Shown here: positions 1-64,000 of the stretch, in pieces | How the letters are laid out: each line of letters opens with the position of its first letter | Position numbering within the stretch: position 1 is the stretch's first letter | NCBI GenBank assembly: GCA_000004985.1 | Contig: GG738898.1 | Strand: one strand, 5' to 3' | Origin: Naegleria gruberi | Taxonomy: Eukaryota | Length of the DNA stretch: 64,000 nt | Made by a program: the position numbers and the translations under genes | The notes under the pieces: generated by a model | The model's input: only the letters and a program-made list of their open reading frames with translations | Database searches by the model: none | What the model was told of the DNA's origin: nothing

Positions 1-700
1 AGAAATTCAAACATTGCCAAAGTATGAAGAAAGTTTCTTTATCAAAAAGTTACTCTCAGACGAAACTCTAAATGATATTTCAGTGTTAAGGAGAGCCACT
101 AAGGAATTCTCTCTCAAATTAGATTCACTTCCATATTTTATTCGAAACTTTGGGAAATTCAACTATGAAATGCTATTGTTTCTTGTTGAGGAAACTAATC
201 ATGCTGTGAATGAACCCATTTATGGATGTTCTCTGCTGTGTGAAATGATTTACAATGCACATTTGAATAATATTTCAATAGCAAATGATATTCTCTCAAT
301 GGTGGAGAAGGGTGCAATAATTTCAATAGAAACTCAAGACGAAAGATATTCAACCGATGAAATTCTAGAATATTTTTACGAAGAAGAGGAATTTTATTTA
401 CCAATTATGGAAATATTAGTTGATATTTGTGGAGTTAGATTTAAAAAATTGGATCATTTCATACGAAGAGTGGCTAATAATTGTCGAAACTCTAAATGTT
501 TCTCTCCCACTGGACTAATCTCTGTAATTGAATTTGCTGGTAAATATTTAAATGTTCAATCCATTTCTACAAGAATATTTCAAGATGCTATGAATCATTA
601 TTATGACATGTATGTGGAAGAGAAATTTAATGAAAAACAAGCAGAAGAATTCAAGAATTATATTAATGGAAAGTTTGGTGGAAATACCTTAATAAACTAA
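1..700 (+). CDS. Hypothetical protein, C-terminal fragment (gene begins upstream of window)
   Basis: The frame is open from the window edge (codons start at nt 2) to TAA at 698-700. Codon usage matches the rest of the window. No recognisable domain. Confidence 0.4.
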   Translation, partial: EIQTLPKYEESFFIKKLLSDETLNDISVLRRATKEFSLKLDSLPYFIRNFGKFNYEMLLFLVEETNHAVNEPIYGCSLLCEMIYNAHLNNISIANDILSMVEKGAIISIETQDERYSTDEILEYFYEEEEFYLPIMEILVDICGVRFKKLDHFIRRVANNCRNSKCFSPTGLISVIEFAGKYLNVQSISTRIFQDAMNHYYDMYVEEKFNEKQAEEFKNYINGKFGGNTLIN

Positions 701-745
701 TAGGATTAATTACTGATTTCAACAAACTGTTTATATTTTGAATTC

Positions 746-1948
746 TTAAAAGTATACTGAAATAGATGACGCACTTGTCATTGTAAGAATCAATTCTTCG
801 TCCTCTTCACTTATTTCATTATCTATCAATGAAAGACTAGATAAATGTTTCAATTCTTGTATAAGGTGGAAAGCTCCTTTTCCAATTAAATTTCCTTCAA
901 CACTGAGGTTAAAAGTTTCCAATACATTCTGATCCTTCGCGACCAATCATGTTACTAGAAACATCAAGTTTTGTTAAATTTTCGAGTTGGCAAATGTATC
1001 TTATACCTTCCTCTCTTAATTGACAGTATGAAATATTGAGTCTTGTTAAATTGTTCAAATTACCAATGAACTGGGCACCCAAAGCACCAAATTCATTTGT
1101 TCCAATGTCAAGATCCGTCAAATTGGTTAATTTTCTTATTGATTTGGCTCCTTCTTCACTCAAACTATTATCTAACACATCCAGTGTTCTCAATTAAATC
1201 ATCTCAGATATAATTCGAGCTCCAACATCACCAATTCTACATCCTGACATTTTAAGTCTCTAAATTCTTCATTTTACTAATCAATCTCATTCCCTCAATC
1301 CCAATTTCATTGTTACTAACATTGAGGTATCTTAATTGTTCTAATTGGCTAATTGTACTTGCTCTGTCAACATTAATTCCACATTCTTCAACGTCAAGAC
1401 AGGTCAATTGCTTTGGTAGCTTTATGGATTCAATATTCATGCAATTCATACTCATTCTTAATGATTTCAATTGTTCCAGTTTTTGTAAAAACTCTCCCTT
1501 ACGAATACTATTGCAGGAAATTGATAAATGTTCCAAATTTATCATCCTTTCAAGACAATCCAAAAACAATTCACCATCAATTAGTGGCTGATCAAAGTCT
1601 CCATCAATTATTAAATCGACAATATTTTCTAAAAATTGACTCTTTAAGAGGAACGTTGCTCTTTGGTTGTCCATTTCGGAATGCAAATTAAGGCAGAGTT
1701 TTGAATGATTCCTCACCACTCTAAGCCACTGCTTGGATACCAATACAATACTATTTAATATGAACCATGATGATGATGAACTGTCGTTCATGGTTAAATA
1801 GGTTAATATTTCACTACATATTTCATCAGGAACATTAAACCCTAAACAATTAATTATACACAAAGTTATTAATACCTTAAATAATAAACAATAAACAATG
1901 AAAATTACAATTACTTGATGATTTGCTGCTTTCAATTCTAACGACCAT
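746..1948 (-). pseudogene. F-box-like / ribonuclease-inhibitor-type LRR protein, probably pseudogenised (paralog of 37841..39100)
   Basis: Three minus-strand ORF fragments (1252-1935, 909-1193, 746-946) all encode RI-type LRRs (e.g. LDVSSNMIGREGSECIG, LDIGTNEFGALGAQFIG) after an F-box-like PDEICSEILTYL...KQWLRVV segment. Three lesions break the frame with no GT..AG solution: a 1-nt frameshift in an A-run near 1250-1253, an in-frame TAA at 1194-1196 replacing one residue of an otherwise intact LRR, and a second frameshift near 925-945. Confidence 0.5.
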
Positions 1949-3198
1949 TTTTCTGATGATTAATTAAATATTTTTTTTATCCACTAATCTGCCGATTAAG
2001 GATCGCAGTAATGTACTAGTGATCGATATTATACTCATTGAGAATTAGGAAGTGCTAGATTGGATAGTATTAATATCATGATCCTTAATATATTCTTTTA
2101 AGATAACTTTATTTCGTCAGGTGTGTGGGAACCAAAGGTATTTAAATTGATGAGTAATCAGTGAAGTGCACAATTAATAATAATCAAATTAAACTCCAAG
2201 CCAATCAAATTATTTGTTCCAAGCTAGATAAAAATCCTAACGCAATTCTAGAATAATGGACATGTTAATTATCAAATAATATGATCAATCATTACTGTTG
2301 ATGAAAACTTGTAGTTTAAATTTACGGAACACAAAAGTTGCAAAATTACCCTGACACAATTAGTTTGGTGAGGAAATTGTTGTCGTTTTCTCAACAAAAA
2401 TCAAGATGAAAATCCAATATTATGTTCAAAATTCTATTCACAATGAAGACATCACATCTAATTCAATTTTTGCATTCTCTTTTATTTTTTAAAACAACAA
2501 AATTAACTTCAGCACTAACAATTATTATGGAACCCCTGAACAGAGCAATGCAGTGGACAACCTTCATGAAGGCTTTTCCAATATATATTATCCAACAAAA
2601 CAACAAGAAAGGAACTTTGATATTTAATGTATTTAAATGGTTGAAATGCAATTACAATCTATACAACAACATTTTCGATATTGAATATTCAAAACCCATT
2701 ATCGCTATGAAGTTGATGATATCTAACCCGATGTCATTTACTGTGGTGTCACCTTATGAAAGTCACAGCTCTTATTGTGCTTTGGTAACCGAAAATAACT
2801 CATCTCACCTGCCTTTAAATCCCTTCCGAATCTTGCCTTCCTATTTGTATTCATTTGGCCAATTTCATTCCTCAATAGAAAATTATCATTTTGCCTCAAT
2901 AAGATAATCATTAACAAAACGGAACCTATTATCAAATATTTGGTGACTTACAAAACCTCAGCGAATCAACAAGAGAAGCAAATTTCAATATCAACCATGC
3001 GAGCTTTCAGTTTCAACCTGTCAGTGTCGGAAATGCAACAGGTTAAAATCCATCATCTATCCCACCATCATGAGGCGAGTCATCCCAAATAACGACTTGG
3101 AATCGTATGAGTCACCTATTAGCTGTTTCCTTTCTTTTAACGGCATCCATTATTATCATAACCATTTCTTCATCATTAAAAAAAAATCAGAATATTAT

Positions 3199-4192
3199 AT
3201 GGCTAATACTGTACTTGGTAGCACAACCGCTGCTAAACATGCAGTTGGTTTCAACCTTTCATTGTTGGTATGTAGATTTCACTTTGTTTATTGTCTGACA
3301 CTTGCTTGCGCACTATACTTTTGACATTTGGCGTTCAATAATTTTTCACACTCCATGCGAAAATGTTTAATATACACAAATATCTATTGCGAATTCGAAT
3401 TAACAGAAAGGTGGTACTATTACCCAAACAATTATTGGTGCAATTATTACAGCTTTGGTAATTGCTTCAACCGTTGCAACCATTATCTTGGTTTCTGTTG
3501 GTGTTGGTTACAATCCACCAGTTGCGTAAGTATTATCTAATTTATTCGAATTAATTTACGAATCTAAATTCTTTTTCACAGTGCCAATGACTTTGCTTCT
3601 ACTTATAAGAGAATGCCAGTCACTGTCGATGTACTCATAAATGATAACGATCCACGTGGTGGTAATCTTACTTTGACTCAAATTGTTAATCAACCAAAGT
3701 ATGGTACTGTCAAGATCCTTTCTCGTTCCCAAGTTGTTTATCAATCCATTGGTTCTTTCTCTGGAAATGACACTTTCAGTTATGAAGTTAGTAATTCCTT
3801 TGTTACAGCCAATGCTACTGTTACTGTTCAAGTTTTGAATAGACCTCCTCAAGCTGTTCCAATCTATAAGAAGATTTCCAAGAATGCTCATAAGGCCCTT
3901 GTCGATATTTTCAATTATGTTGGTGACAATGATGAAAGAATTAGTGATATCGATAATGATGTCTTGTATGTTACTGGCTTCGCTGATCAACAAGTTATCA
4001 GTGGTAATGCTCAAAGTTTGGGATCCATTGAAGTTGACACTTACAATGGTTTCTTGTACACTCCTGTTACTGGTTTCAATGGTATTGAAAAGTTTAATTA
4101 CACAATCTCAGATGGTAATGACACTGCTTCTTCAACTGTTACTGTTGAAGTTGAAAATGATGCTCCTATTGCCGTTGATGATTACTTTAGAA
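3199..4192 (+). CDS. VCBS/cadherin-like tandem-repeat membrane protein, copy 1 (3' end lost in assembly gap)
   Basis: Exon 1 is 3199-3267 (MANTVLGSTTAAKHAVGFNLSLL), with donor GTATGT at 3268. Exon 2 is 3407-3525 and encodes a TM helix (GAIITALVIASTVATIILVSVGVGY), with donor GTAAGT at 3526. Exon 3 starts at 3582 after acceptor CACAG and runs into N at 4193. Exon 3 encodes ~95-aa repeats with PVAVDD ... (V/N)L(I/A)ND(N/Y)D signatures. This is a paralog of 60163..>64000. Confidence 0.8.
3582..4192 (+). repeat. Segmental duplicate of 60802..61412 (same strand, 57,220 bp apart) with a sharp identity boundary
   Basis: Positions 3631-3875 differ from 60851-61095 at only 2 positions by eye, with no indels. 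Positions 3582-3630 against 60802-60850 are only about 70% identical. Beyond 3876 identity falls to roughly 88-90%. Introns and exons 1-2 are much more diverged. Confidence 0.8.
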
Positions 4193-4802
4193 NNNNNNNN
4201 NNNNNNNNNNNNNNNNNNNNNNNNNNNNNNNNNNNNNNNNNNNNNNNNNNNNNNNNNNNNNNNNNNNNNNNNNNNNNNNNNNNNNNNNNNNNNNNNNNNN
4301 NNNNNNNNNNNNNNNNNNNNNNNNNNNNNNNNNNNNNNNNNNNNNNNNNNNNNNNNNNNNNNNNNNNNNNNNNNNNNNNNNNNNNNNNNNNNNNNNNNNN
4401 NNNNNNNNNNNNNNNNNNNNNNNNNNNNNNNNNNNNNNNNNNNNNNNNNNNNNNNNNNNNNNNNNNNNNNNNNNNNNNNNNNNNNNNNNNNNNNNNNNNN
4501 NNNNNNNNNNNNNNNNNNNNNNNNNNNNNNNNNNNNNNNNNNNNNNNNNNNNNNNNNNTCTGTAAACATGACACTTGTGTGAGTATTGACCATCCCTNNN
4601 NNNNNNNNNNNNNNNNNNNNNNNNNNNNNNNNNNNNNNNNNNNNNNNNNNNNNNNNNNNNNNNNNNNNNNNNNNNNNNNNNNNNNNNNNNNNNNNNNNNN
4701 NNNNNNNNNNNNNNNNNNNNNNNNNNNNNNNNNNNNNNNNNNNNNNNNNNNNNNNNNNNNNNNNNNNNNNNNNNNNNNNNNNNNNNNNNNNNNNNNNNNN
4801 NN

Positions 4803-6059
4803 GCGAAATTGTTGGGATGTATCCATTTTCGACAGTGGAAATGATTAGAATCCAATCTAAACCATTATCCTTAATGGTTGTCACACTAATTCTCCTACCA
4901 TCATATTGAAAAGATGAACTGTTAACTTTCAATGTCAAACTTTGAATATCATTAACTTTTTTTGAGTTATTTAATCGTAAAATATCACGTTTGTCAAGCT
5001 CGTTTGCTAATCGTTCGTTTCTACTATCTATTTCAGTCATTTGAAATCGTTTTCCATCTACTATATTCGGTTGAGAAAATGAATTCGAAACTAACATTCC
5101 ATTACGCTCAACCAAGACAATATCAATACTGTTGGTGTTCATGTCTAAGTGTCTACAGACTGTATTATTGAGTAATTGATCCATGTAGAATAGATCATAT
5201 TGCATTCCAATTATTTCTTCCACAAGAATCATTTCAGTTCCATTTTTAATAAATATTGGAAAATCCAATTTAGTAACTGCTGAAATTGATGGTGTGTTGA
5301 ACAGGTAGTGAATCCAAATATCTGTCCAAACGTATTGTGGGTATGTGTATTGATTAATATACCAAGGTCTTGTCGTGCAATCATACCCTCCTTTTTCAGT
5401 TGTCGTATTCGAAATTGGTTGAAAGTATTCGTCAAAATCAGACGATTTCAGTATGAGATCAGGTCCACTAGATTGAACTCTACTTCTATTCTTTGAAATT
5501 TCCAAACTAAACAATTGTTTTTGGCTATTTCCATAGGTTATTTCAGAGAAAGTCCTCGTAGACGAAATAATTGGTGCCAATTGACTCACCACTCGTTTAT
5601 AATTCTCAGTAAAATTCCCAATTTCATTGCCATAGATGTGTTGATGTAAAAAGAGAGAAGTTCTCAGATTGGATAAAATCTGTCTCGAAGTATGTACGAA
5701 ACCTTCCACCTCCCTTACAATATTTTCTTCTCTAATTTTGGAAGTGTTTGCAAGAGCTGTTTCTCCACTTTCCAATTTTGGATTTTGATTAAATTGTTGA
5801 AAACTAACCTCGAATAAATAATTATCAGCATGCACCCAATGCAGACGAATGTTTGTATGAGGAAAATTGAAAGGAAAATATTTTGAATGGTGTTACATTT
5901 CGAACAGGGAATTTTCCTTGGTGAAACAATTGTTTTTTCAATGTCGTCCGATTTTTCACAGGAGGACGATTCTGGTGGTGAGGTTATGCTTGTCTGCATT
6001 TTTTTGTATATGTGGGGGAGGTACCGTTTGTCCTTCTGTTGTCCAAAACCATTATCCAC
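4803..6059 (-). CDS. dCache (double Cache) extracellular sensor-domain membrane protein, N-terminal part (rest lost in gaps 4193-4802)
   Basis: Exon 1 is 6059-5809 and ends in a TM/signal-anchor segment (NIFLSIFLIQTFVCIGCMLIII). A 41-nt intron spans 5808-5768 (GTTAGT...AG). Exon 2 runs from 5767 to the gap in the frame of ORF 4132-5835. It contains a long helix and then the Cache hallmark GYDCTTRPWYINQY. Splicing is inferred because it joins the TM ORF in frame to the Cache ORF. Confidence 0.65.
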
Positions 6060-6524
6060 TGTTGTCTTTCTAAATATGGAAGTATTCCATTTTGGTTACA
6101 ATCGTTCCACTACCATTTGTGAATGAAATTAATCATATAATTCGGCACAAAAGATGATATCTATCTCTTCTTGATGATATTGCTTTAGAGGAAATGTTTA
6201 GAGGTAATGAAACCCATAAACATGTTTAGTCATGTCCAAATTAAGGTCGGCAAATATCTTAATCAATGTACGTTATTTCTTTGAATTTACTTCAAGTTGA
6301 GATTGAGAATCTTGTATGTTTCCTTTAATAACCAGTTGTATCTCTCTTACTGAGGACTAATGGGGCTCATTAAATGTTTTTCCTTTCGTTATAATCACAA
6401 CATTCGATTAGTTTCCAATAGTTGTTGCATGTGATCACACATCTATGGCATCTAGACTAAATATCAGTTTGACGGACTAACCAAACCAGAAACATGATCG
6501 GCACTCAAAGTATCACTACTAAGA

Positions 6525-7034
6525 TCACTGATTACCACTACTCATCAATGAACTATTAGCACTACTACTACTACTGCTGCCACTATCCACTGACACCACT
6601 GACACCATTGCACTACTACTACTACTACTGCTGCTTGTTATCATTGAAGTGGAAGATTGATTTGGATTGATAATTGGCCGCACAACCATAGCTCCCATTA
6701 CAATTTGAGATTTTGGAGGTTTGTAATTAATTGTTGGCAAATGACTGATTGGTGTTAAGGGAGTAAATGCAATGCAATTTCCCTTTTCCAAATGAGATTT
6801 GAAATCAATCATGTTATCGACCAAGTAAACATGCTTCTTGCATGCTTTACAATATTTGGTAGAGTTTGATTTGGATTTCAATTTTTCAAATTTTAATGGA
6901 CATTCGTATAGCCATTCACAATTTTCAATAAATTCTGAGCCTTTAAAAGAGGGAAGGACGTGTTTAGTTTCTTGAAATGGAATTTTGATTGAATTTAAAT
7001 GTTGAATTCTCCTTCTAAGAATGTGTAAATAATT
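6525..7034 (-). CDS. Cys-motif (putative zinc-ribbon, CEWLYECP...YCKACKKHVY) plus poly-Ser tail ORF; either a separate small gene or the C-terminal end of the giant gene across the gap
   Basis: The frame is open from gap edge 7034 to the stop at 6525. It carries a C-x5-C ... C-x2-C motif and a Ser-rich C-terminus. The 5' end lies in N-gap 7035-7545, so the relationship to the upstream giant ORF cannot be read. Confidence 0.35.
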   Translation of the reverse strand, partial: NYLHILRRRIQHLNSIKIPFQETKHVLPSFKGSEFIENCEWLYECPLKFEKLKSKSNSTKYCKACKKHVYLVDNMIDFKSHLEKGNCIAFTPLTPISHLPTINYKPPKSQIVMGAMVVRPIINPNQSSTSMITSSSSSSSSAMVSVVSVDSGSSSSSSANSSLMSSGNQ

Positions 7035-7545
7035 NNNNNNNNNNNNNNNNNNNNNNNNNNNNNNNNNNNNNNNNNNNNNNNNNNNNNNNNNNNNNNNNNN
7101 NNNNNNNNNNNNNNNNNNNNNNNNNNNNNNNNNNNNNNNNNNNNNNNNNNNNNNNNNNNNNNNNNNNNNNNNNNNNNNNNNNNNNNNNNNNNNNNNNNNN
7201 NNNNNNNNNNNNNNNNNNNNNNNNNNNNNNNNNNNNNNNNNNNNNNNNNNNNNNNNNNNNNNNNNNNNNNNNNNNNNNNNNNNNNNNNNNNNNNNNNNNN
7301 NNNNNNNNNNNNNNNNNNNNNNNNNNNNNNNNNNNNNNNNNNNNNNNNNNNNNNNNNNNNNNNNNNNNNNNNNNNNNNNNNNNNNNNNNNNNNNNNNNNN
7401 NNNNNNNNNNNNNNNNNNNNNNNNNNNNNNNNNNNNNNNNNNNNNNNNNNNNNNNNNNNNNNNNNNNNNNNNNNNNNNNNNNNNNNNNNNNNNNNNNNNN
7501 NNNNNNNNNNNNNNNNNNNNNNNNNNNNNNNNNNNNNNNNNNNNN

Positions 7546-10500
7546 GAGTGTGGATAGGAACAGGATTTTCATAGTGATGATGTTCCATATGTAATTCCAC
7601 ATCTGCTGATGAAATTATTGGCTTGTGATGAGAATCATCTTCCACTTGTGGAGTTTGTGGAATTTGTTCCTCTCCTTCCCATGCTCGTTTCACATTGGCA
7701 ACAAATGTTGTTGGAATACCAGTTGCTTGTTGCATAGTACCATCCACTTTGAGTGTTCTTGTTGATGATTGCTTCTCAAAGAGGTTACTAATATTGTACG
7801 TAGTGGTGGTTGTGGTGGCTGTGGTAGCTGTGGTGGCAGGTCTTTCTGAAATACAGTCTTGTGCATTCAAACTTTCCAAATTAACTTTAGAATTAATTGG
7901 TAGGATACTATTGATAGAGTATTTGAGTGATCTTGAAGTTGCTGGTGTTGATGGTTTAGTTGATGATTGACTGTAAATAGAACTAGATGGTTGAATAACA
8001 TGATGGTCAATCAAGTCTATGGAATCAACAACTTGTTGTGGAACAACCGAATTCTTCTTAATCAGGTCCAAATTCAATTCCTTGATAGAAATGACAGAAT
8101 TTGCAGTGGATGGCCTCTTGTCTTCCTCTTCAGTTGGACGAGTTGGTGTAGATGGTATTTCTTGATCGGGATTATATTCCTTTCTAGGAATGTAAAAATT
8201 TCCTTCAATATCTTCATGACTTGGAACAGCAATTTCACTTTCGTCACCATAATGTTTCTTTGAAGGAAGCTTAATCTTTTGTGGTTTGAGGTCATCATGA
8301 GTAACATAGGACAAGTGACGAAGAAGTTTTGGAATAGGACGTGGTCGAATAGGTCTGACCGGTCCAGAACCTTCCTTTGGGTTGGTGGAACCATGCTTAT
8401 TCTTTGAATTCTTGGTATTTCTCTTTCTCATAAAGAAACATACAAGGAAAAGCAACAAGAACATGCAGGACAATCCACATACTATGGCTGCTGAAAACAC
8501 AGCTGCTGCAACGTACATGTACGAGTAGTGAGAAACTGTGGCAGTCTGGATGACAAAGACATTGGTAAAGTGAGAACATTTACAATAGGCATGTGTATCA
8601 TTCTTCAGTTGGAGGGAACATGAGTAGGTAACTTCAGTAGTTCCATCTAAAAAGTCTGCACATGCATAACTGTCTGTTTCCTCTGTAAAATCGAATGAAC
8701 TTGCTGTACTAGATGTAAGAGTACTTGTAGTATTGATGGGAATAATGTAAATGAGGCCATCTTCCTTCATAGGAACACTCAAGTCCGTGAATTCAACCGA
8801 GACAATTGGAGAAATAAGACTTGACGTTCTAGTTGTCGAGGCAGAAAGTTTTTGTGAAAGTTTTAGCTTTCTATCAAGAGAAAACACATCATCTGTTACT
8901 GTCATTACGTACGTGAATGGTTTTTTAACAAGTGATGATACCTTATTTTCAAAAACAAAGAAATTGTCTGGAATTAGAACAGAAGTAGATCTTTCAGAGT
9001 CAGTAATGATATTCTCATAATCATAAATGGTACTTTTACCCATAATCATGGAGAAGAATGGTCCTTTGGTTCTAGTAATAGTACGAGAAATGTACATGTC
9101 TCTGGTTTGAAGATTTGACGACATTTTGAGTGCGGATAATAATTTTCTAGAATTGGAAGTTTGGTCAGTAATGTACTGTCTTTCCATAATGTAGTCATGG
9201 ACAGATTCAACACAAGCATTCAATAGGTTTTGCACACCTGGAGATAATTTGATTTTTCCAGAATCTTGGGCAGTTGTTAAAAACCTATTCAGGGTGCATA
9301 ATGCCTCTGAAATTGTCTTGGAATTGAGGAAATGATAATTAACAAGGATTGAATCAACAGCAAATGAGAGTAGAGAAATGTAATCCTCATTCAAACCATC
9401 AGTCTTATTCATACTTGTAGTAATATCATTTAGGACAGTTAATTTGCTCTTTTGGATGTTAGAAAAATCTCTAATGGAGGTTTCACAATGAGTACCAATA
9501 TATCCATCAGCACACTTGCATTCGCCTGAAACTTCTACACCACTTATACATTGAAGATACTTGGTTGATCTTTCATTTATGGAACGCTTAAATGATAAAT
9601 CTCCAAGGGTTTCTTTCAATAGAACCGAATCTGTTCTAGAAGTAGAGGCAGATTGATAGATGCTCTTACTGAAATGACCTTCGGACATGTAGGTTGCACT
9701 CACCCCTGACCAAGTCGATACAATTTCTTGAACTTGTTCAATGTCTGTTACTGTTGGTTTGGAAATTGTAATATTCTTCTCCATAAGAGTTGTACCGCCT
9801 GTGACAGTATTGATAATTTCAAAGAAACAAGTCACTGTATCACCATAGAATGGTGCAGGTAGTTTGGAGGCAAACACTTCACCAAGGTTGTACAGATAAA
9901 TCTTGGATCCTGATCTATCATCCAAAAAGCCATACTTAAAGTCAATATTTTCATCTGGATTTTTACAATTGGTACAATAGAAATCAAATTCAGTTTCAAG
10001 TGCAATACCTGTTGATGGATTAATGGAGCAATCACATGGTTTTGGAATGGAAGCCATTGAGAATGCATACGCTGTTCTCACAGTAACACCAGAAGAAGTA
10101 TCTCTTGCTGCAATAGTAAGAGTATTGGTTGAACCCTGCACAAGCAAGGTTGTATCTATGACTCCTGTCACCATTTCTGCAGCACCAACTTGCTGTACTA
10201 TGAATTTAGACTTGTCAAGAATCATTCCATTGAGAACCCATGTGGTTTCTGTGGAGGAAGTTATTTCTGATGAGATTAAAGTTTGAACGGAAAGTTTTTG
10301 CCCAGGAATCAAGTATTGAGTAGTAGGATTAATATCAAGGATATTCACCACAGGTGGAATATTATTAAAGTAAACAATGGTGGACTTTTCCACAATTCTG
10401 TCAGTTTTGGAGACTCTTAATCGAAGTTGAAGTGATGAAGGAACAATCATGCTTCCAAACAGGGCTGAATCAATGGTGAATAGCTTGGCTTTTGTGCTTG

Positions 10501-13500
10501 AAATGGATCGAAGCAAACTGAGCAAATCAGGATTGCCACTATCTAAGCAACTCCATGTCCATGTTTCCACTGATTCATAATTGATGGCATCCTCTGGATC
10601 ACTGTATTCCACTTTAATGACTGTATATGTCTTTCTGGATTCTAATTGAACAAGATTTAGATAGAGGTCTGGAGATTTTGTTGTCAATGTCACAGTAGAG
10701 GTTGAGGAGAGTGTTGGATTTGAAGCATAGTAAGCTTTCACTGTGAATGAGTAGCTCACACTTCCAAAAGTTCTCAATCTAGAAATGTACAAATTGTTAA
10801 ACTTGTCTACAGTGAATTCTATGGCAGGCCCTGATGTTTGAGCCCAATCAATTGTAACAGATTCTGATGCACATGTTGACTGAGTAACAACCTTCTTGAT
10901 TGAAGAAGGAAAATCTGTTGTGAGCTTTTCAACCAAGGATGGAGCCATCACTAAAGGAAGAGGTTTCTCAGACTTGACAAATTCCCTCGAATATACATAA
11001 GGACTAATAGTATTCAATGAAGGGCTATGGACCTGAAGCATCATTCTATATCTTCCAGCTGGAAGTGATGCTTCCAACTTGATAATAGCTTGATTGGGAT
11101 AACTATTAGATACAATTTCAAAGGTAGTTGCATCGAGTAAGGACCAATAATAGCTCAATTGCTTTCCATCATTGGAGTGGCTCAGAGTGCCATCTACACT
11201 AATTTCATCACACGAACTAAACATGTCTATATTGGCCATACTAATGAAGGCAGTTGGGGTGTTATTCTGTAAGGGCATGACAACTGGAATGGAAATATAT
11301 TCCTCTCTGGTTGTTAAGTTATTGTATCTATCGTAGACGAGTGTATTCAATTTGATTGATTGACCACTTTCTAATGTATAATCAATTGAACCAAAAGTGA
11401 TCATGAAAGCATAGCTTGCCTTATTCAAATATTTACATTTCACATTAGAGAAGGAACCATAAACATTTCTGGACCTATCTTCTGAACTGATAAGATTCGA
11501 GCACGGAATTTCCACACCAGTAAATGCTGTTGGGAGGTTGAGTTTAAATACTAATCCAGAAAAATCGGAAAGAATAGTGGCAGGTCCTTCAATCTTGGTT
11601 GCACAATTAATTCCATAATAGCCATTCAAACAAGTGTCACATAAGGAGCCATTCCAGAATCCACGTTCAAAACTTGAATAACATTTGCAAGTCAAATCAG
11701 ATTTACATTCTCCATTATTGAAACAATTATTTGCACAAGTACTATTTACAACAGTTGTTGGAGTACTGCTTGAATTATTGCTAGTATTGCTAGTTGCATT
11801 GTTTGAAATCGGTGGAACTATAACCTCGTTACTTGTGTTGTTTGTTGGAGTGGTTGAGTTTTCATTGGGAATGGTAATGTTTGGATGTAATTGTTCTGAA
11901 CAATTAAATCCCAAGTATCCATCCTTACATTTACAAGTGTCAAAATCAGTACACTGACCATTACCAGAACATACTAACTCAGATGTGGATTTAACAGAAA
12001 AGCAAGTTGTGAAATTACAGTTTGGTCCAAAATATGGCAAGTTACAGTCACAATGATTGAAAGATTCACACCTACCACGGGATTGACAAACAAGGGATTC
12101 ATTACTCAATACACCAAAACAACTTGTCACAGAGCAATCACTTCCAAAGCTATTTGGTTCACATTCACAAGTGTCCAAGTCTGAACAAACTCCTCTTTGA
12201 GAACAAACAGTCATATCTAACTTGGATTTACCGTAGCAATAAAAGTGAGAGCAATCTGGGCCAGAGTATCCTTTGTTGCAGACGCACGTATCATGACTTG
12301 TACAACTACCACGGCCAGTACACGTCTCAGAGCTATTGGACGATTTTGAAAAACATGTAGTCAACTCGCAATTCATTCCAAAATAGTTTTCAGCACATTC
12401 ACATTGGTCGAACTCAACACATTTTCCTCTGGAATTACACACAGAAGAGGAATTTGATGGAATATTGTGGCATAGAGGAATTTCACAATTAGATCCAGTA
12501 TATGAAGAATTGCAAGAGCAATGATTTAAGGTGGAACAATTTCCTCTTGAATTGCATACATTTGGATCATGAGAAGAAATTCCAAAACATGTAGTGTACT
12601 GACACCAAGGTCCTGCATACTCTGATGGACAATGGCACTCATCAACCTTTGAGCAATTTCCAACAGAATTACATACTTTGGAAGAGTTTGAGGCAATTCC
12701 AAAACATGTAGCCAACTCGCAATTTCTTCCTGTATACTTTTCATTACATGTACAATTATCTGGTGAATGGCAAGGGCCGTGATAGCTACAAACTGAAGAA
12801 TTACTATCCTTAATACCAAAGCATAGAGAACCAAAGCAATTATCACCATAAGAGCCGTGGTTACAAATACATGTATTCGAATCGGTGCATGAACCATGTC
12901 CAGAGCAAACACTGGATTGGTTATTCATTACACCAAAGCACTTGTAATTTTCACAATTGGATCCATAATAACCTGATTTACATTCACACAGATTGTAATC
13001 TTTACAAGAACCATGCGCAGAGCAAACATAAGAATCATTAGAAGCAATACCTGCACAATAGCTCTTTTCACAGTTGGTTCCAAAGTAGTGAGCTGAACAA
13101 GAACACTTATCGGCAGAGATACATTGGCCATGAGAGGAACAAACTGAGGAAACATTACTTAAAACTCCATTACATTGTGTTACTTCACAATGCTTGCCAA
13201 AATAATCCTTTAAACATGAGCAAGTCTCAATGTCAATACAAGTGCCCCTTCCTGAACAAACTTTAGTATCGGTACTGAGTGTACCATTGCATTTGAATAG
13301 TTCACATTTGCTTCCTGAGTAACCACTCTTACATGTACAGTTATTGAAATTAGAACAGGTACCATGAGAAGAACAAACTGAAGAGCTATTAGAAAGAGTT
13401 CCATAACATGAAGAAACCTGACAAGTTGAACCATAGTAATTTGCTGAGCAGATACAATTATTGAATGAGCTGCAATAACCATGTGAGTTACAAACACTTG

Positions 13501-16500
13501 GAGATGTTGAAAGTTGAGAGCCGCAGGTTGTAATCTCACATCTAGACCCCGAGTAATGATCTTGACACGTGCAAGTGTTTGGGGATGTACAATTTCCATG
13601 TGAGCTACACACAAGAGATGAATTGCCTGTTGTACCATTACATATTGGAATTTCACACCTACTTCCCAATGAATTTGATGAACAAGCACATGTATCAGTA
13701 TCTACACATGTTCCATAACCAGTGCACACTTTTGGAGATGTATTCTTGATGCCAAAACAATAGTGTTCTGAACAATTTTGCCCAAAGTTACCTTGAAGAC
13801 AAGAGCAATTATTAAACTCTCCACAAATTCCCTTTCCAGAACAAACAGAGCTAATGTTTGATAGGAATGAATAGCAAGAAGTAATTTCACATTGACTTCC
13901 CATGTAATTATTCAAACATGAGCATGTATTGAATCCAACACATGTTCCCCTTGATGAACAGACAGATGTATCATTACCAAGTTTTCCGTAACATTTAGAG
14001 ATGGAACAATTATTTCCGTAATAATTATTGGAACAAACACAAGTGTCAATATCCACACATGTTCCTCTTCCAGAGCAAGTCTTGTTCGAATAGTAAGGAA
14101 TGTCGTAGCACTTGTAATCAGAACATGTGCTGCCATAGTAGGTGTGATTACATTGACAATTATTGTAACTAATGCAGGAACCTCTTCCAGAGCATACATA
14201 CTTGCTGTTAGAGAAAACTCCAGAACAAGTAGTCAATTCACACCATTGTCCCAAATAGCCAGTTTTACAAAAACAAGTATCAGGTGCTATGCAACTACCA
14301 TGCGAATTACATACAGTGGTATCATTGGAAAGTGTTCCATTACATTGAACCACACTGCAATCCATTCCAGAATAGCCAATATTACATTTGCAAGTATCAG
14401 GACTAGTGCATGATCCTTGACCACTACAGACAAAGGTAGAATTGGATGAAGAAATTCCATAGCAACTTGTCTCCTCACAATACTCTCCAAAATATCCACT
14501 ATTGCATTCACAAACTTCGTTGGCAATGCATGAACCCCTTCCTGAACAAACAAAAGATTCATTATTACTTAGCATGCCATTGCAAATGTAGAGCGAACAA
14601 TCTGTTCCATAAGCTCCATAATTACACTTACAGCTGTTGTAGTCGATGCATTGTCCATTTCCAGAACATGTACTATTGTCATTGGAGTTGATACCATAGC
14701 ATTTTGTAAAGTTACAGCTGTTGCTTAAATATGGCTCAAATGGATCGAAACTCTTTGGTGGTTCAAATATGACACTCTCTAAAATAACATACGAGTTGAG
14801 AGCCCATATAGATCCAGCAACTGTTCCATGCACGTATAGATAGTCATCCTTGGTGGCTGATATAACAGTACCAGCTATTGGTTTTGTGGAAGAACCCCAC
14901 ACTTGTGATGAAGATCCAACCACCCAGTATAAATTTCTATGTGAGGCACAATTTAAAAAGGTAATACTTGAATTTGCATAATAGAGTGACGGAACCTTAA
15001 TTACTACTGGCTCTGTTCCAATAATAACAATATTTTGAGTTGGTTTTACAAACCAATTTGTTAAAAAACAAAGAACAGCTCCATTTCTAATGATTAGAGT
15101 TGAAGAGACATTGGTTGAGGTTAAGTATTGTGTACATGCCATATTTTGAATGAGATCAATTGATTTTGTCATTTCATCAACAAGCATCTGGCCAATTGGC
15201 TCAGAGGTCAAAACAATTGAAGCATTCTTATTTGGCAAGTACGGGAAGTATGAATATTCTTGTAATTCTAAAACCATACTAGCTGTCAATAACTGATACT
15301 CTCTTCCTATTGAGGAAATGACATGTTTTGAGCAGATCACTTTGTAACCGGCGAATATATCAGTCTTGAGTTTTTCGCAATTTTCACCTCCAAATCTATT
15401 TCCACATTGGCAAGAATTGAAATCAACACATTTTCCATTTCCAGAGCAAACATTGCTATCATTGGATGGGATACCGTGACATGAATTAATTTCACAGAAA
15501 GGACCATCATAATTAAGAAAACATTTGCAAATGTTGTAGTCTGTACAAGTACCATGTGAGCTACAAACTGAGGAAACATTTCCAAGAGTTCCATTACATG
15601 TTGTAATAGAACAATTTAAACCTAATCTGTTAGCTCCACATTGACATGTGTCTGGACTTGTGCATGAGCCATGGCCAGAGCACACTGAACTATTAAAATT
15701 ACTCACTCCAAAACAGTCATAATTGGAGCAATGGTTTCCATAGTATTTGTCTGAGCAGGTGCAATTTTCAAAAGAAGAACATTTTCCATGAGTAGAGCAA
15801 ACCAAAGAATCATTTGAAAAGATGTTTCCACATTTTGTTATATCACACTCCTGTCCATAGTAATGTTCTTCACAAGAACAATTGTTAAATGGCCAACAGA
15901 TTCCTCTTCTGTGGCATACCTCACTGTGATTGGAGAGAATTCCAAAACACAATGTCATTTGACAGAATTCTCCAAAATAATTTGAGGAACAATTGCACAT
16001 ATCATTAGCTGTACACGATCCATAACCATTGCAAACATTAGTGTCATTACTAAAAGTTCCATTACATTTAGAAATTTCACACTCATATCCAATGTAATGC
16101 TCAAAACAAGAACATGAATCTTTTTGAGAACAATTTCCTCTTCCACTACAAACAAAACTATTATTCATATTACTCACACCAAAGCATTCGAAATATTCAC
16201 ATTCAGAACCCGAATATCCAGGTTGGCAAGAACAATTATTGAAATCATTGCACTGCCCAAATCCCTTACAAACGAGTGAGGAGTTTTGTTGAATACCAAA
16301 GCAGGTTACAAACTCACAATATTTTCCGTAATACCCTTCTTTGCATTGGCATGTTTCTGGTGCAATGCAAGTTCCTCTTTCTCCATGACATTCTCCTATC
16401 GTACCATTACAAAGAGGTATTTCACACTCTGATCCTCCGTAGCCCAAAGTTGAATTGCAAGAACAGTTATTGGATGATATGCATTTACCTCGTTCATTAC

Positions 16501-22500: not shown

Positions 22501-22945
22501 CATTACTGAGCCAAGAACAGTTACCATGTCCTGAACATGTGATCATGGTACTGTTATTATACTCACTTTCATTCCATGTCTTGGCTATCGAAGAACACTC
22601 CACATACTCGCACTCTTCTCCATAAAATCCCAACTGGCATTCACATTCAGTGTCATTTGTACAATTTCCTCGTCCAGAGCATATATTTATGCTAAGATTA
22701 TCATCAGTGAATAGCCTTAATTTGCAACTGTTGTGTCCCGATGATGATGTAGCAATTACTTTCGATAAAATTGCTCTCTGAATTATTAAGCATTGTATCA
22801 CCAATATTATCATGATCATAATATTTGTTATTGTTGTTATTCGCGTTTTCCATTTTACTCGCCTCCACACTTTGAATTTCTCATCCAAAAAGGTTGCTCC
22901 TTCACACGTATGATGATGAGAGTGAAGATGAACACGAATCGGCAT
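7546..22945 (-). CDS. Giant (>5,100 aa) single-exon surface protein: signal peptide, EGF-like (tenascin/ComC-type) repeats, ~1,600-aa NxS/T sequon-dense stalk, ~60 EGF-like repeats, beta-rich REJ/PKD-like region, GPS motif, one TM helix, Ser/Thr/Pro-rich cytoplasmic tail
   Basis: This is an uninterrupted 15.4-kb minus ORF from ATG at 22945 to gap 7545. The EGF repeats follow a ~33-aa periodicity of C..SG.G.C.....C.C...Y.G..CE. A GPS-like ...C..F...YSCSLQLKNDTHAYCKCSHFTNVFVIQ sits immediately before TM VAAAVFSAAIVCGLSCMFLLLFLVCFF at about 8440-8520. Codon usage is consistent throughout. Confidence 0.85.
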
Positions 22946-59913: not shown

Positions 59914-60162
59914 AAATGAACACTTCAAACCTCTAACATGTGAAAGGTTTAAAACCTATGAATTTTCAATAGAGCGGTAAATTAACGAGGAGGATTCCAG
60001 AGTGAACTGCCTTACTGTCGTTGTAAACTGCCCTATTCACTCAACTTTTTGATGTCAAGTGGTTTGATACTTTCAACTCTACCACTACGAGTGTCAAAAG
60101 TCAATAAAACTAACCTTCCACCTCGAGCAAAACATACTTCATCATTAAAAAAAACAATCAAG

Positions 60163-63100
60163 ATGCCAGCTACTATCTTGAACGGTTCTACCACTTCAAG
60201 TTCTGGTCTCAATATTAACCTTTCATTGTTGGTAAGTTTACATATTTCACATGAGCTTAATTATAATTCTTTATTGTTGTTGTTGCTGATCTTTCTCCAC
60301 ACCAATGACATCTGGCACTGTGATCTCTCTTACTCTTTCGATATTTTAATATCACATGCTAAACTAATTACTTTGAATGGCCATGTTGTTTCTTTTCTAA
60401 ATTCTCCACTTTGACCAAAACGCGGTCAATTCAACTTTTTAAAAAATTGGCATCACATTTGATCTTCTGAATCTTTGCAACGCGATTTTCCTTCTTTGCT
60501 CCTTTGGCGCTTTTTCTGGTGCGGTTCAATCATCATCAATATTAATTTATTGTTAAAATTACTTTTTTAAATGATGAATCCGTGTTGAGTAGAAAGGAGG
60601 TACTATTAGTCAGACAATTGTATGTTTTTTAAATATTTTGTATGTTTAATATTTTGAATGTTAGGTTGGTGCAATTATTACAGCTTTGGTAGTTGCTTCC
60701 ACAGTTGCTACTATTATCTTGGTTTCAGTTGGTGTTGGTTATTCTAGTCCTCAACCGTATGTACTTTTAAAATTCATTATTTGAAATTAATTGAAATCTA
60801 GTCAACCTGATTTTGCTACTACTTACAAGAGAGTGCCTATTACTGTTGATGTACTCATAAATGATAACGATCCACGTGGTGGTAATCTTACTTTGACTCA
60901 AATTGTTGATCAACCAAAGTATGGTACTGTCAAGATTCTTTCTCGTTCCCAAGTTGTTTATCAATCCATTGGTTCTTTCTCTGGAAATGACACTTTCAGT
61001 TATGAAGTTAGTAATTCCTTTGTTACAGCCAATGCTACTGTTACTGTTCAAGTTTTGAATAGACCTCCTCAAGCTGTTCCAATCTATAAGAAGATCTCCA
61101 AGAATGCTAATAAGGCTCTCGTTGATATTTTCAATTATATTGGTGACAATGATGAAAAGATTACTGATATTGATAATGATGTCTTGTATGTTACTGGCTT
61201 CGCTGATCAACAAGTTACCAGTGGTAATGCTCAAAGTTTAGGTGCAATTGAAATTGATCCTTACAATGGTTTCTTGTACACTCCTGTTAATGGTTTCAAT
61301 GGTATCGAACAATTCAAGTATACCATCTCAGATGGTAATGACACTGCTTCTTCAACTGTTACTGTTGAAGTTGAAAATGATGCTCCTGTTGCTACTGATG
61401 ATGTTTACAGAATTCCAAAATATAGTAGTTTGGAATTGCTCATTTTACAAAATGATTATGATATCAATGGTGATGATTTCAATGTTACCAACGCTGTTGG
61501 TGCTGGTTATGGTGCTCTTCGTGTTCAAGACAAGACTGTTGTCTATTTCACTTCAAGTGTTTTAACCAAAAAGTATACTGATTCTTTCGAATATTCAATT
61601 TCTGATAGTCAAGCTTCAGGATCTGCTGTAGTTTCTGTTCAAGTTTACAATACTGAACCAACTGTCTACTCCAAGACTGTCACTGTTGGAAAGTCCTCTT
61701 CCAATAACCTCATTTCAATTGATTACTCTGATCCTGATGGAAAGGATGTTGTCGTATTGACCAAAGTTACTCCTGCATTGGCCTCTCTTAATCCAGCTGC
61801 TTCCATGCAAGTTGCTAAGGGTACTAAACGTGTCAACCTTGATTGTTGTGATTGGGTTAGCGTTGAAACTAATAATTACACTATTGTTTATACTCCAACT
61901 CCTGGAGTTGTTTACTCACAAACTTTGGATATTTCCATGACAGATGGTGAATCTGATGGCTATGGTAAGATTACTATTAATGTAGTCAATAATCCACCTG
62001 TTGCTGTTGATGACACTGTTACTTGTAATAAGAATCAACAAGTTTTGATTAATGTTCTTGCCAATGACTATGATGTTAACCCAGGCGATACTGAACTTCT
62101 TCAATTAACTAATAACGGTTGGCAATCAACTACCAAGAATGGTGGTTCTGTTTCTATTTATAATGCTACACATGTATTGTATGTTGCTCCAAAGGGTAGT
62201 TTGGCTACTGATGTTGCCTCCTATAGAATCTATGATCAAAGCAAAGATGTACAAGGTAATCCAGATTCTACTGGTTTCTCAACTGGTAAGATTAGTATTA
62301 ACATTATCAATAATCCACCTGTTCCTGTTGATGATGTTTTTACTATTTCAAAGGGTCTTAATGCCACTTTGAACGTTTTGAATAATGATTATGATCCTAA
62401 TTTCGATCTTATTTCAACAATTAACTCTGTTGATAGATCAACTGTTAAAAATATCTTGGCTACTATTGTTAAGAATTCTGGTGAAAATGATACCTTATTC
62501 TATACTGCTGCTAATGAAGAGTACACTGATTACCTTACTTATGATGTAATTGATGTTGACGGTTTGGTTTCTGAAAATAAGGCCACTGTCACTTTGAATG
62601 TTGTCAATAATGCTCCAGTTGCTAGAGATGATACTTATAGTGTTAACTGGAATCACAATATTTTGTGCCCTGTCAAGACTAATGATGCTGATATCAATGG
62701 TGATTTGCCTTCTTCCAAGATTGAAATTTATCAAAATCCATCTAATGGTGTTGTTGAAGTTATTAGTGATAGTGTAAGATATACTCCAAATACTGCATTT
62801 GTTGGTGTTGATACTTTCCAATACAAGTTGAACGATGGTAGTGTTGCCAATTTCTTGTCAAATGCTGCTACTGTTACAATTAATGTTTTGAATACTGCTC
62901 CTGTTGCTGTTGATGATACTGCCACTACTCACTGGAGAAATGATGCTGGTGTTTTAGTCAGTGTTTTGGTTAATGATTCTGATAATGAAGGTGATTCCTT
63001 GTCTGTTACCAATGCTCTAGTTGATGCTGTACTGCTTCAGTTTTTGATAGTCAAACTGTCAAGTTTGTTTCAACTCAAACCTCTGCTACTGTTGGTACTA

Positions 63101-64000
63101 AGCAAATTAAGTATACCGTCTCTGATGGAAACAAGAATACCATTGGAAATGTCAATGTCTTGGTTACAAATACCAAACCAGTCGCTTTTGCTGATGCTTA
63201 CACTTACCACTGGGCTGCTCCAAAACAAACATTGAGTGTCATGTCTAACGATAAGGATGCCGACCTTGATCCAATTTCAATCAAATCTGTTTCTGGAAGT
63301 GCTGCCGCTGTTAAGAATGGAAATGATATTGATTATACTCCAAAGAAGGATGGTGTTACTGATACCTTCCAATATGTCATTACTGATACTGTTACTGATG
63401 CTGATCCAGCAACTGTCACTGTTACTTTCACTAACAATGACAAGCCAGTTGCTTCAAGTGTTTCAACTTCTATTCACTGGAGAGCTTTCGCTGCTCAATC
63501 TAATCAACAAGATTTCTCTGTTTATTCCTCAACAACTGATGCTGATGGTGACGCTCTTACATTGACTGTTAATCCAACTGCTACTGGTATTTCTGGTGCT
63601 TCATGTAGCAAGACCACTGATTCAATTGCCAAGGTTAGAGTTACAGCTCCAACCAAGACTACTGGTTCTGCCACCTGTTCCTTCTCAGTTTCTGATGGTT
63701 TGGCAAATACTGGATCAAAGACTGCTACTGTTACTATAACTAACAATGCTCCAACATGTACTGATATTACTGTTTTCTTCAATGCTATCTATGTGTCAGT
63801 TGGTCAAACATTCTCCGTTTCTTCATCTGTTAGTGATGCTGATTCTGCTGATGTTCCTTATTTGGCAGCTAGTAGTGCAATCATGTCTGGTTCATTCTCA
63901 GGTGATACATTCTCTGTTTCAAATGGTAACCTCCTCTTCAAACCAAATGGTCAATTGGGTAATCGTGTTTATGGTTATAAGGTTACTGATGGTATTGTTG
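60163..64000 (+). CDS. VCBS/cadherin-like tandem-repeat membrane protein, copy 2 (continues beyond window end)
   Basis: Exon A is 60163-60231 (MPATILNGSTTSSSGLNINLSLL), with donor GTAAGT. A 433-nt intron follows. Exon B is 60665-60756 and encodes a TM helix (VGAIITALVVASTVATIILVSVGVGY), with donor GTATGT. A 45-nt intron follows. Exon C starts at 60802. It contains at least 11 ~95-aa repeats with PVAVDD...NVLANDYD...GD motifs. There is an apparent 1-nt frameshift near 63030, after which the coding frame continues to 64000. Confidence 0.8.

What the first reader, a model, noticed from the sequence alone, without database searches (positions are those of the whole stretch)
3199..4192. A VCBS/cadherin-like gene pair brackets the window, with a sharp near-identity tract inside exon 3
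Two same-strand paralogs lie 57.2 kb apart (3199-4192 and 60163->64000). They share a 3-exon 5' structure: a 23-aa N-terminal exon, a TM-helix exon and a long repeat exon. The mosaic identity pattern is unusual. Positions 3631-3875 against 60851-61095 show only 2 mismatches in 245 nt, including synonymous sites. The first 49 nt of the same exon are only about 70% identical. Exons 1-2 and both introns (139 vs 433 nt; 56 vs 45 nt) are strongly diverged, and identity decays to about 88% after 3876. This is the signature of a recent gene-conversion tract within an older duplication, not uniform purifying selection. Copy 1 also has a 27-nt insertion in the TM exon.
Basis: seen in the sequence. Interest (0 to 1): 0.6.

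Follow-up and report, generated by a model that had tools for sequence, protein, structure and literature searches.

The report
Gene-conversion tract between Naegleria adhesin paralogs
Two old, diverged copies of a Naegleria gruberi surface-protein gene 57 kb apart share a 248-base stretch that is almost identical, most likely because one copy recently overwrote the other there; this is a clean example of a well-known process, not a new one.

Summary
Window 3628-3875 and 60848-61095 differ at 2 of 248 positions. The 46 nt before the tract differ at 13 positions and the 296 nt after it at 27. No permutation of the differences gives such a run (0 of 200,000; third codon positions alone P=0.0015).

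The tract is not unusually constrained. Against the N. lovaniensis homologue P0001 it has diverged as much as its flanks (70/248 vs 109/295; Fisher P=5e-4 against the paralog counts). Upstream flanks are unrelated and introns nearly unalignable, so these are two loci, not one mis-assembled locus.

Interlocus gene conversion on an older duplication is the best explanation (about 0.75). In residues 1-78 the copies are no more alike (52/78) than either is to N. lovaniensis (57-60/78). In residues 79-260 they are 169/182 identical, against about 120/182 across species. Homogenisation therefore starts about 16 codons into exon 3 and has at least two age layers (dS 0.018 and 0.28).

Corrections:
- Copy 1 ends at an assembly gap, not a gene end.
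- The "27-nt insertion" is a conserved micro-exon; copy 2 has an extra 45-nt intron.
- The domains are Big_9/Cadherin_4/5 (tandem-95), not VCBS.

The assembly cannot be checked against reads here. The finding is ordinary in kind.

The parts
3168..3185 (+). 18-nt motif CTTCATCATTAAAAAAAA upstream of the copy 1 ATG; identical motif upstream of copy 2
   Evidence: Only two matches in the window at up to 2 mismatches, 0.08 expected. The surrounding upstream sequence is unalignable.
3199..3267 (+). Copy 1 exon 1 (23 codons, N-terminal tail)
   Evidence: ATG at 3199, GT donor at 3268. Matches public model P0121. dS versus copy 2 is about 1.0.
3268..3406 (+). Copy 1 intron 1 (139 nt, GT-AG)
   Evidence: Barely alignable to the copy 2 intron (z=2.2).
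3407..3525 (+). Copy 1 exon 2: KGGTITQTI plus the transmembrane helix, in one exon
   Evidence: The 9 residues are conserved across the Naegleria family.
3526..3581 (+). Copy 1 intron 2 (56 nt, GT-AG, phase 2)
3582..4192 (+). Copy 1 exon 3, encoding two Big_9/cadherin-like domains; cut by the assembly gap
   Evidence: Pfam Big_9 3.4e-23, Cadherin_5 2.3e-15, Cadherin_4 5.5e-14. AlphaFold model shows two beta-sandwiches, pLDDT 95.7.
3628..3875 (+). Near-identity (conversion) tract in copy 1: 2 differences in 248 nt; perfect core 3718-3875
4193..4802 (.). Assembly gap (366 N, a 39-nt island, 205 N) that hides the rest of copy 1 and the end of a convergent minus-strand ORF
60137..60154 (+). Same 18-nt motif upstream of the copy 2 ATG
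60163..60231 (+). Copy 2 exon 1 (23 codons)
   Evidence: matches P0247.
60232..60592 (+). Copy 2 intron 1 (361 nt, GT-AG)
60593..60619 (+). Copy 2 27-nt micro-exon (KGGTISQTI), skipped in the public model
   Evidence: 21/27 nt and 8/9 aa identical to copy 1, flanked by AG and GT. The residues are conserved in all N. lovaniensis and N. fowleri homologues.
60620..60664 (+). Copy 2 extra 45-nt intron, absent from copy 1
   Evidence: GT-AG. An intron sits at the same place, within 1 nt, in two N. lovaniensis paralogs.
60665..60756 (+). Copy 2 transmembrane-helix exon
60757..60801 (+). Copy 2 last 5' intron (45 nt, phase 2)
60802..64000 (+). Copy 2 long repeat exon, which runs off the window; at least 9 Big_9/tandem-95 domains in the window
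   Evidence: Pfam Big_9 1.9e-66 and 5.2e-19. NCBIfam tandem-95 at 153.6 bits against a cut-off of 90. Public model P0247 continues to a C-terminal VWA domain.
60848..61095 (+). Near-identity tract in copy 2, partner of 3628-3875
63029..63031 (+). Apparent 1-nt deletion (frameshift) in copy 2
   Evidence: The reading frame switches here and stays open for 323 more codons. Either a sequencing error or a very recent lesion.

Best explanation
The window is Naegleria gruberi DNA. Its two ends carry paralogs of a Naegleria surface-protein family. Each protein has a short N-terminal tail and one transmembrane helix. A long chain of bacterial-type Ig/cadherin-like 'tandem-95' domains follows. In full-length members the protein ends in a VWA domain.

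The duplication is old. Exon 1, the introns and the upstream DNA are at or near saturation, and the first 78 residues are no more alike between the copies than between species.

From about 16 codons into exon 3 the copies have been homogenised by non-reciprocal homologous recombination (interlocus gene conversion). An older layer lies at 3876 to at least 4192 (dS about 0.28). A very recent event covers 3628-3875 (dS 0.018; 158-248 nt).

Shown: two distinct loci, significant breakpoints, a normal between-species rate in the tract, and a switch in phylogenetic signal.

Inferred: the repair mechanism (double-strand-break repair using the ectopic copy as template), the direction of transfer, and that the public assembly reports both loci faithfully.
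For: Identity of the organism and genes:
- Copy 1 is 100% identical to an annotated N. gruberi protein, P0121. Copy 2 corresponds to P0247 on the same 310-kb scaffold.

The tract and its significance:
- 2 differences in 248 nt, against 13/46 before and 27/296 after.
- dS is 0.018, against 0.82 and 0.28.
- Permutation P<5e-6 for all sites and 0.0015 for third positions.

Not constraint:
- Versus N. lovaniensis the tract differs at 70-72/248 sites, and at 38-39 of 82 third positions. That is similar to the flanks (102-109/295). Fisher P=5e-4.

Two separate loci:
- No similarity between 1-3167 and the region upstream of copy 2.
- Introns have different lengths and number and are barely alignable (z about 2).

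Switch of phylogenetic signal:
- Residues 1-78: copy 1 vs copy 2 is 52/78, copy 1 vs N. lovaniensis 60/78, copy 2 vs N. lovaniensis 57/78.
- Residues 79-260: copies 169/182, across species about 120/182. P=5e-7 and P=1e-10.

Other points:
- No Rfam family in the tract, and the antisense ORF is not conserved.
- Naegleria genomes encode RAD51/DMC1 and mismatch-repair genes (PMC9928731).
Against: - I could not inspect reads or a second assembly. Copy 1 lies on a 4.2-kb contig that ends 317 nt after the tract, next to two gaps, so a consensus contaminated by reads from copy 2 is not excluded.
- With only two close sequences the donor, the recipient and the pre-conversion state are unknown.
- The 5' evidence for a very old duplication rests on about 80 codons and small synonymous counts (5' vs downstream P=0.02).
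- Faster evolution of copy 2's N-terminus would explain part of the 5' divergence.
Confidence: 0.75

Rival explanations
1. Assembly artefact. In the draft Sanger assembly, reads from copy 2 (or from a collapsed repeat) were merged into the consensus of the short copy 1 contig. This would create an apparent identity tract that does not exist in the genome.
For: - Copy 1 sits on a 4,192-nt contig that ends inside the repeat exon, beside two N gaps and a 39-nt island.
- The rest of copy 1 is missing from the scaffold.
- Copy 2 has a 1-nt frameshift, suggesting imperfect consensus.
- The last 21 nt of the contig are unusually divergent.
Against: - The tract (248 nt) is shorter than a Sanger read (my knowledge, not tested here). 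It is flanked on both sides, within one read length, by sequence clearly specific to copy 1: 28% different upstream and 9% downstream.
- It contains 2 differences, so it is not a plain copy of the copy 2 consensus.
- Mis-recruited reads would be expected to spoil the flanks as well.
Confidence: 0.1
2. Recent duplication with rapid 5' divergence. The pair arose recently. The tract shows the true low baseline divergence, and the rest has diverged fast, for example under diversifying selection or through conversion from other family members.
For: - Copy 2's exon 1 is atypical for the family, whereas copy 1's is close to the family consensus.
- Three-taxon branch lengths give copy 2 the longest 5' branch.
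- A third N. gruberi paralog exists (P0248).
Against: - Synonymous sites (dS 0.28 to about 1.0), introns and upstream DNA are diverged too, which selection on protein does not explain.
- The third paralog matches only 43/82 residues in the tract and about 55/100 downstream, so it is not a donor for the flanks.
- Mechanistically this rival still requires gene conversion.
Confidence: 0.07
3. Nucleotide-level constraint. The tract is kept identical because it holds an overlapping functional element, such as an RNA, an antisense gene or a splicing or regulatory element.
For: Antisense ORFs of 152 and 155 codons overlap the tract in both copies.
Against: - Between species the tract has diverged at 28-29% of sites and about 47% of third positions.
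- N. lovaniensis has an 86-nt intron in the middle of it.
- There is no Rfam match.
- The antisense frame carries 4-5 stops in two N. lovaniensis paralogs.
Confidence: 0.03
4. Divergent haplotypes. The 1-4192 contig is an alternative allele of the copy 2 locus, or a chimaera containing one, placed wrongly in the scaffold.
For: - Published work describes Naegleria as mainly heterozygous diploid (PMC9928731).
- The contig is joined to the scaffold only across gaps.
Against: - There is no homology at all upstream of the 18-nt motif.
- Intron number and lengths differ, and dS is up to about 1.
- Exon 1 proteins match at 9/23 residues. This is far beyond allelic variation.
Confidence: 0.03

Closest known systems
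Interlocus (ectopic) gene conversion and concerted evolution of dispersed paralogs, as described for globin, tubulin and MHC genes
   Same: - Two non-allelic copies on the same strand.
- A short contiguous tract (158-248 nt) of near identity that includes synonymous sites, with sharp edges.
- Older diverged flanks.
- Phylogenetic signal that differs between gene segments.
   Different: - Only two sequences are available, so donor and direction are unknown.
- One partner is incomplete in the assembly.
- I found no earlier report for this family in 2 full-text searches.
Bacterial tandem-95 / Big_9 / Cadherin_4 / Cadherin_5 repeat adhesins (large RTX-type and 'VCBS-annotated' surface proteins)
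   Same: - The same roughly 95-residue domain, well above the Pfam and NCBIfam thresholds.
- Tandem beta-sandwich fold.
- The N-D-x-D-type acidic motifs are visible in the sequence.
   Different: - A eukaryotic gene with spliceosomal introns.
- An N-terminal transmembrane anchor specific to Naegleria and relatives, and a C-terminal VWA domain.
- No RTX, T1SS or LPXTG signals were seen.
- The Pfam VCBS model itself does not match.
Segmental gene conversion among surface-protein genes in trypanosomes (VSG mosaics)
   Same: - A surface-protein multigene family in a discobid protist (placement from my own knowledge).
- A partial copy and a short conversion tract.
   Different: - Here the tract makes the copies the same rather than creating new variants.
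- There is no expression-site logic, no evidence of switching, and only three close paralogs in N. gruberi.
- This is an analogy only.

Membership tests
Interlocus gene conversion | The two sequences are non-allelic loci with unrelated flanks | tested here: met
   No similarity upstream of the 18-nt motif. Intron number and lengths differ.
Interlocus gene conversion | A contiguous tract diverges significantly less than its flanks, including at synonymous sites | tested here: met
   2/248 differences against 13/46 and 27/296. dS is 0.018 against 0.82 and 0.28. Permutation P<5e-6 for all sites and 0.0015 for third positions.
Interlocus gene conversion | Low divergence is not explained by a locally low substitution rate | tested here: met
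   Divergence from N. lovaniensis is 70-72/248 in the tract and 102-109/295 downstream. Fisher P=5e-4.
Interlocus gene conversion | Phylogenetic incongruence between converted and unconverted segments | tested here: met
   Residues 1-78: copies 52/78, no higher than cross-species 57-60/78. Residues 79-260: copies 169/182, cross-species about 120/182. The 5' segment is short.
Interlocus gene conversion | The sequence at both loci is verified independently of one draft assembly | not testable with these tools
   N. gruberi proteins are not on record in the contig collection. The metagenome scan found nothing.
Interlocus gene conversion | Donor and recipient are identified | not testable with these tools
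   This needs other N. gruberi strains or a pre-conversion haplotype.
Big_9 / Cadherin_4 / Cadherin_5 (tandem-95 repeat) domain proteins | Score above the curated family thresholds | tested here: met
   Pfam Big_9 221 bits (cut-off 23.6), Cadherin_4 185 bits, Cadherin_5 96.5 bits. NCBIfam NF012211 153.6 bits (cut-off 90).
Big_9 / Cadherin_4 / Cadherin_5 (tandem-95 repeat) domain proteins | Ig/cadherin-like beta-sandwich fold in tandem | tested here: met
   The model of 3583-4191 has pLDDT 95.7 and two all-beta domains. Foldseek PDB hits are tandem Ig-like and cadherin EC pairs, E down to 1.7e-9. TM-scores are low (0.3-0.45), most likely because the inter-domain angle differs.
VCBS repeat (Pfam PF13517) | Match to the VCBS model | tested here: not met
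   PF13517 does not appear among Pfam hits at E<=0.01 for either copy. 'VCBS' appears only as a source-given name on some bacterial homologues.
Classical cadherins (Pfam PF00028) | Match to the cadherin EC domain model | tested here: not met
   No PF00028 hit. The resemblance is at fold level only.
VWA-domain adhesion proteins | VWA domain with a D-x-S-x-S MIDAS motif | tested here: inconclusive
   Outside the window. Public model P0247 for copy 2 carries PF00092/PF13519 and the sequence LLDSSQSIG. For copy 1 the region lies in the gap or is absent.

The most novel reading that the evidence does not exclude
Copy 1 may really be a short 5' gene fragment, as the estimated gap sizes suggest. It would then act as a cassette that exchanges segments with the full-length gene. 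This Naegleria surface-adhesin family would then remodel its membrane-proximal domains by segmental gene conversion, loosely like mosaic surface-antigen formation in the related trypanosomes, while the cytoplasmic tail and anchor evolve independently behind a fixed conversion boundary near codon 78.
Probability: 0.06. Interest if true: 0.65.

Novelty: new member of a known kind. Interest (0 to 1): 0.3.

Why it matters
- It is direct sequence evidence that homologous recombination acts between dispersed paralogs in N. gruberi, an organism in which sex and recombination are inferred mostly from gene content and heterozygosity.
- It points to a little-described Naegleria and Willaertia family of membrane-anchored proteins. 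These are built from bacterial-type tandem-95 domains plus a VWA domain, and they are plausible adhesion molecules with members in the pathogen N. fowleri.
- It shows that the two public gene models at these loci are partly artefactual.
- It does not reveal a new mechanism.

Tried and rejected
- **Single mis-assembled locus or alleles:** rejected. Flanks are unrelated and introns differ.
- **Purifying or nucleotide-level constraint:** rejected. The between-species rate in the tract is normal and N. lovaniensis has an intron inside it.
- **Overlapping RNA or antisense gene:** rejected. No Rfam hit in either gene, and the antisense ORF is broken in N. lovaniensis.
- **Third N. gruberi paralog as donor:** rejected. 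P0248 matches only 43/82 residues in the tract.
- **Conversion from another repeat within the gene:** rejected. The best internal repeat match is 78% over 46 nt.
- **Independent N. gruberi DNA:** exact-protein look-ups for three N. gruberi products found nothing on record. A metagenome scan with a 29-mer from the tract found nothing.
- **Family search with the N-terminal 118 residues:** swamped by bacterial repeat proteins, because the query included half a repeat domain. Uninformative.
- **Quartet test for conversion among N. lovaniensis and N. fowleri paralogs:** uninformative. The N. fowleri pair looks like a lineage-specific duplicate.
- **PDB sequence search:** no hit.
- **Synteny with N. 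lovaniensis:** none detected around P0001, so orthology of either copy to a particular N. lovaniensis paralog stays open.

Full report
**What the sequence is**

The window is nuclear DNA of the amoeboflagellate Naegleria gruberi. The spliced product of the first locus is 100% identical to an annotated N. gruberi protein, P0121. The second locus corresponds to model P0247 on the same 310-kb scaffold. The nearest relatives come from N. lovaniensis at 61% identity, with further members in N. fowleri and Willaertia magna.

Both loci encode members of one family:
- a 23-residue N-terminal exon;
- a conserved KGGTI(T/S)QTI segment and a single transmembrane helix;
- a long exon of tandem domains of about 95 residues.

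The domains match Pfam Big_9, Cadherin_4 and Cadherin_5 far above threshold. They also match the NCBIfam 'tandem-95 repeat' model at 153.6 bits against a cut-off of 90. The Pfam VCBS and classical cadherin models do not match.

An AlphaFold model of 3583-4191 gives two tandem beta-sandwiches (pLDDT 95.7). Its best solved matches are tandem Ig-like and cadherin EC domain pairs.

Full-length homologues are about 2,300 residues and end in a VWA domain. The copy 2 model has the sequence DSSQS at the expected metal-site position, but that part lies outside the window.

**Checking the observation**

The alignment has a constant offset of 57,220 nt through exon 3.

| Segment | Differences | Identity | dS |
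|---|---|---|---|
| 3582-3627 | 13 of 46 | 72% | 0.82 |
| 3628-3875 | 2 of 248 | 99.2% | 0.018 |
| 3876-4171 | 27 of 296 | 91% | 0.28 |

Counts are and dS values. The dS segments start at codon position 3583 and are cut at codon boundaries, so they differ from these ranges by up to 3 nt. The longest perfect run is 158 nt. Identity is 89% from 3876 to the contig end.

Randomly redistributing the 42 differences never produced a run of at most 2 differences as long as 248 nt in 200,000 trials. The result holds for third codon positions alone (P=0.0015). It also holds when the very divergent first 46 nt are left out (P=1.3e-4).

**Is it constraint?**

No. I spliced the N. lovaniensis homologue P0001 (locus L001) and aligned it codon by codon. 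Inside the tract it differs from the N. gruberi copies at 70-72 of 248 sites, and at 38-39 of 82 third positions. Downstream it differs at 102-109 of 295 sites. The paralog-to-homologue ratio differs between the two segments (Fisher P=5e-4). N. lovaniensis even has an 86-nt intron in the middle of the tract. No Rfam family matches in either gene. The antisense ORF that overlaps the tract is broken by 4-5 stops in two N. lovaniensis paralogs.

**Is it one locus assembled twice, or two alleles?**

No. Nothing upstream of an 18-nt motif just before each ATG is alignable. Intron 1 is 139 nt in copy 1 and 361 nt in copy 2. The introns are barely more similar than shuffled sequence (z about 2). The exon 1 products share 9 of 23 residues.

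**How old is the pair, and how far does homogenisation reach?**

dS is about 1.0 in exon 1, 0.47 in the transmembrane exon and 0.82 in the first 16 codons of exon 3.

| Residues | Copy 1 vs copy 2 | Copy 1 vs N. lovaniensis | Copy 2 vs N. lovaniensis |
|---|---|---|---|
| 1-78 | 52/78 | 60/78 | 57/78 |
| 79-260 | 169/182 | about 120/182 | about 120/182 |

These counts are and the tests. Three-taxon branch lengths change from star-like in the 5' part (10, 16 and 8 differences) to a long shared stem in the 3' part (6, 7 and 56). The duplication is therefore old: neutral sites are near saturation, and the 5' protein divergence is comparable to that between species. The repeat exon has evolved in concert from about codon 78 onward.

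Because the introns are almost unalignable, the 9% zone after 3876 is best read as an older homogenised layer and the 0.8% tract as the latest event. The 5' evidence rests on few sites. The synonymous contrast between the 5' coding region and the downstream zone is only P=0.02. Faster evolution of copy 2's N-terminus contributes to the pattern.

1. Position 4192 is the edge of an assembly gap: 366 N, a 39-nt island, then 205 N. A convergent minus-strand ORF (4804 to about 5890) also runs into that gap. The estimated 610 nt cannot hold the remainders of both genes. Either the gap is much larger than estimated, or copy 1 is a fragment. No further family sequence lies between 4803 and 59000. The public model P0121 splices across the gap into unrelated sequence.
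2. The '27-nt insertion in copy 1' is not an insertion. Copy 2 has the same 27 nt at 60593-60619, flanked by AG and GT. The nine residues are conserved in every Naegleria homologue. Copy 2 therefore has a micro-exon and an extra 45-nt intron (60620-60664). Two N. lovaniensis paralogs have an intron at that position, within 1 nt. Copy 1 has therefore most likely lost it.
3. Copy 2 has an apparent 1-nt deletion at about 63029-63031. The frame stays open for 323 more codons. This points to a sequencing error or a very recent lesion.

**Mechanism**

The best explanation is repair of a break in one copy using the other copy as template. The template lies 57 kb away on the same strand. Mismatch correction would then leave a converted patch of 158-248 nt. 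From my own knowledge, that size is typical of ectopic conversion tracts in other eukaryotes.

A published pangenome study reports that Naegleria genomes encode RAD51, DMC1 and mismatch-repair genes, and reports loss of heterozygosity (PMC9928731). The recombination step, its direction and its timing are inferred, not shown.

**What remains open**

I could not see reads or a second assembly. N. gruberi proteins are not on record in the contig collection. A metagenome scan found nothing.

A consensus artefact on the short, gap-bounded copy 1 contig therefore remains possible. I rate it at about 0.1. The tract is flanked within a few hundred bases on both sides by clearly copy 1-specific sequence, and it is not perfectly identical to copy 2.

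**Verdict**

In kind it is ordinary: interlocus gene conversion and concerted evolution. I found no earlier description for this gene family or, at paralog level, for Naegleria in two full-text searches.

Noticed in passing
window 51849-51967 (+) and 52315-52433 (-): Two 5S rRNA genes in inverted (tail-to-tail) orientation, 348 nt apart. They are identical over the first 106 nt. The last 13 nt of the plus-strand copy are unrelated, so it looks 3'-truncated (Rfam 69.6 vs 105.4 bits).
   Followed up: partly
window 6995-22945 (-): One uninterrupted ORF of more than 5,300 codons made of teneurin-type EGF repeats, broken only by the 7035-7545 assembly gap. It is a giant single-exon surface-protein gene next to the adhesin-like pair.
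   Followed up: partly
window 3168-3185 and 60137-60154: The exact 18-nt motif CTTCATCATTAAAAAAAA lies 13 and 8 nt upstream of the two ATGs, in otherwise unalignable upstream DNA. These are the only two matches in the window (0.08 expected). It may be a conserved promoter or 5'-UTR element of this gene pair.
   Followed up: partly
window 3199-6120 and 60163-64000 (public models P0121, P0247): The public N. gruberi gene models look partly artefactual. P0121 splices across the N gap into unrelated sequence. P0247 skips the conserved 27-nt micro-exon and removes stretches of repeat exon, including around the 1-nt frameshift.
   Followed up: yes
window 3199-3900 vs L001 10001-11500 and L002 3001-3900: Intron positions in the 5' part of this gene differ almost completely between N. 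gruberi and N. lovaniensis. Only the intron after QTI is shared (within 1 nt, phase 0 vs phase 1). At least four other positions are species-specific.
   Followed up: partly
L001 10001-17403: The N. lovaniensis model P0001 and the next gene (13849-17403, with a VWA domain) look like one gene split by annotation. The window's copy 2 ends in ...YGYKVTDGIV and the downstream N. lovaniensis product starts MSYKVTDGVA. A 44-nt 'intron' at L001 11430-11473 contains repeat coding sequence (DSFEYSITDG), which suggests a frameshift workaround.
   Followed up: partly
window 58046-59377 (-): A 443-codon ORF with an EGF-like module and a short match to the fibrinogen C-terminal domain (DGGGWT-type motif). 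It lies immediately upstream of copy 2.
   Followed up: no
window 34186-34272 and 39169-39259 (+): Two tRNA matches of 87 and 91 nt, probably intron-containing. ARAGORN reports only the second and gives no confident anticodon.
   Followed up: no
window 1252-1935 (-) and about 37,900-38,830: An F-box/LRR ORF near copy 1 has a protein-level paralog (about 35-45% identity) in the middle of the window.
   Followed up: no
window 4804-5890 (-): An ORF of about 360 codons with no Pfam match runs into the same assembly gap as copy 1 from the other side.
   Followed up: partly
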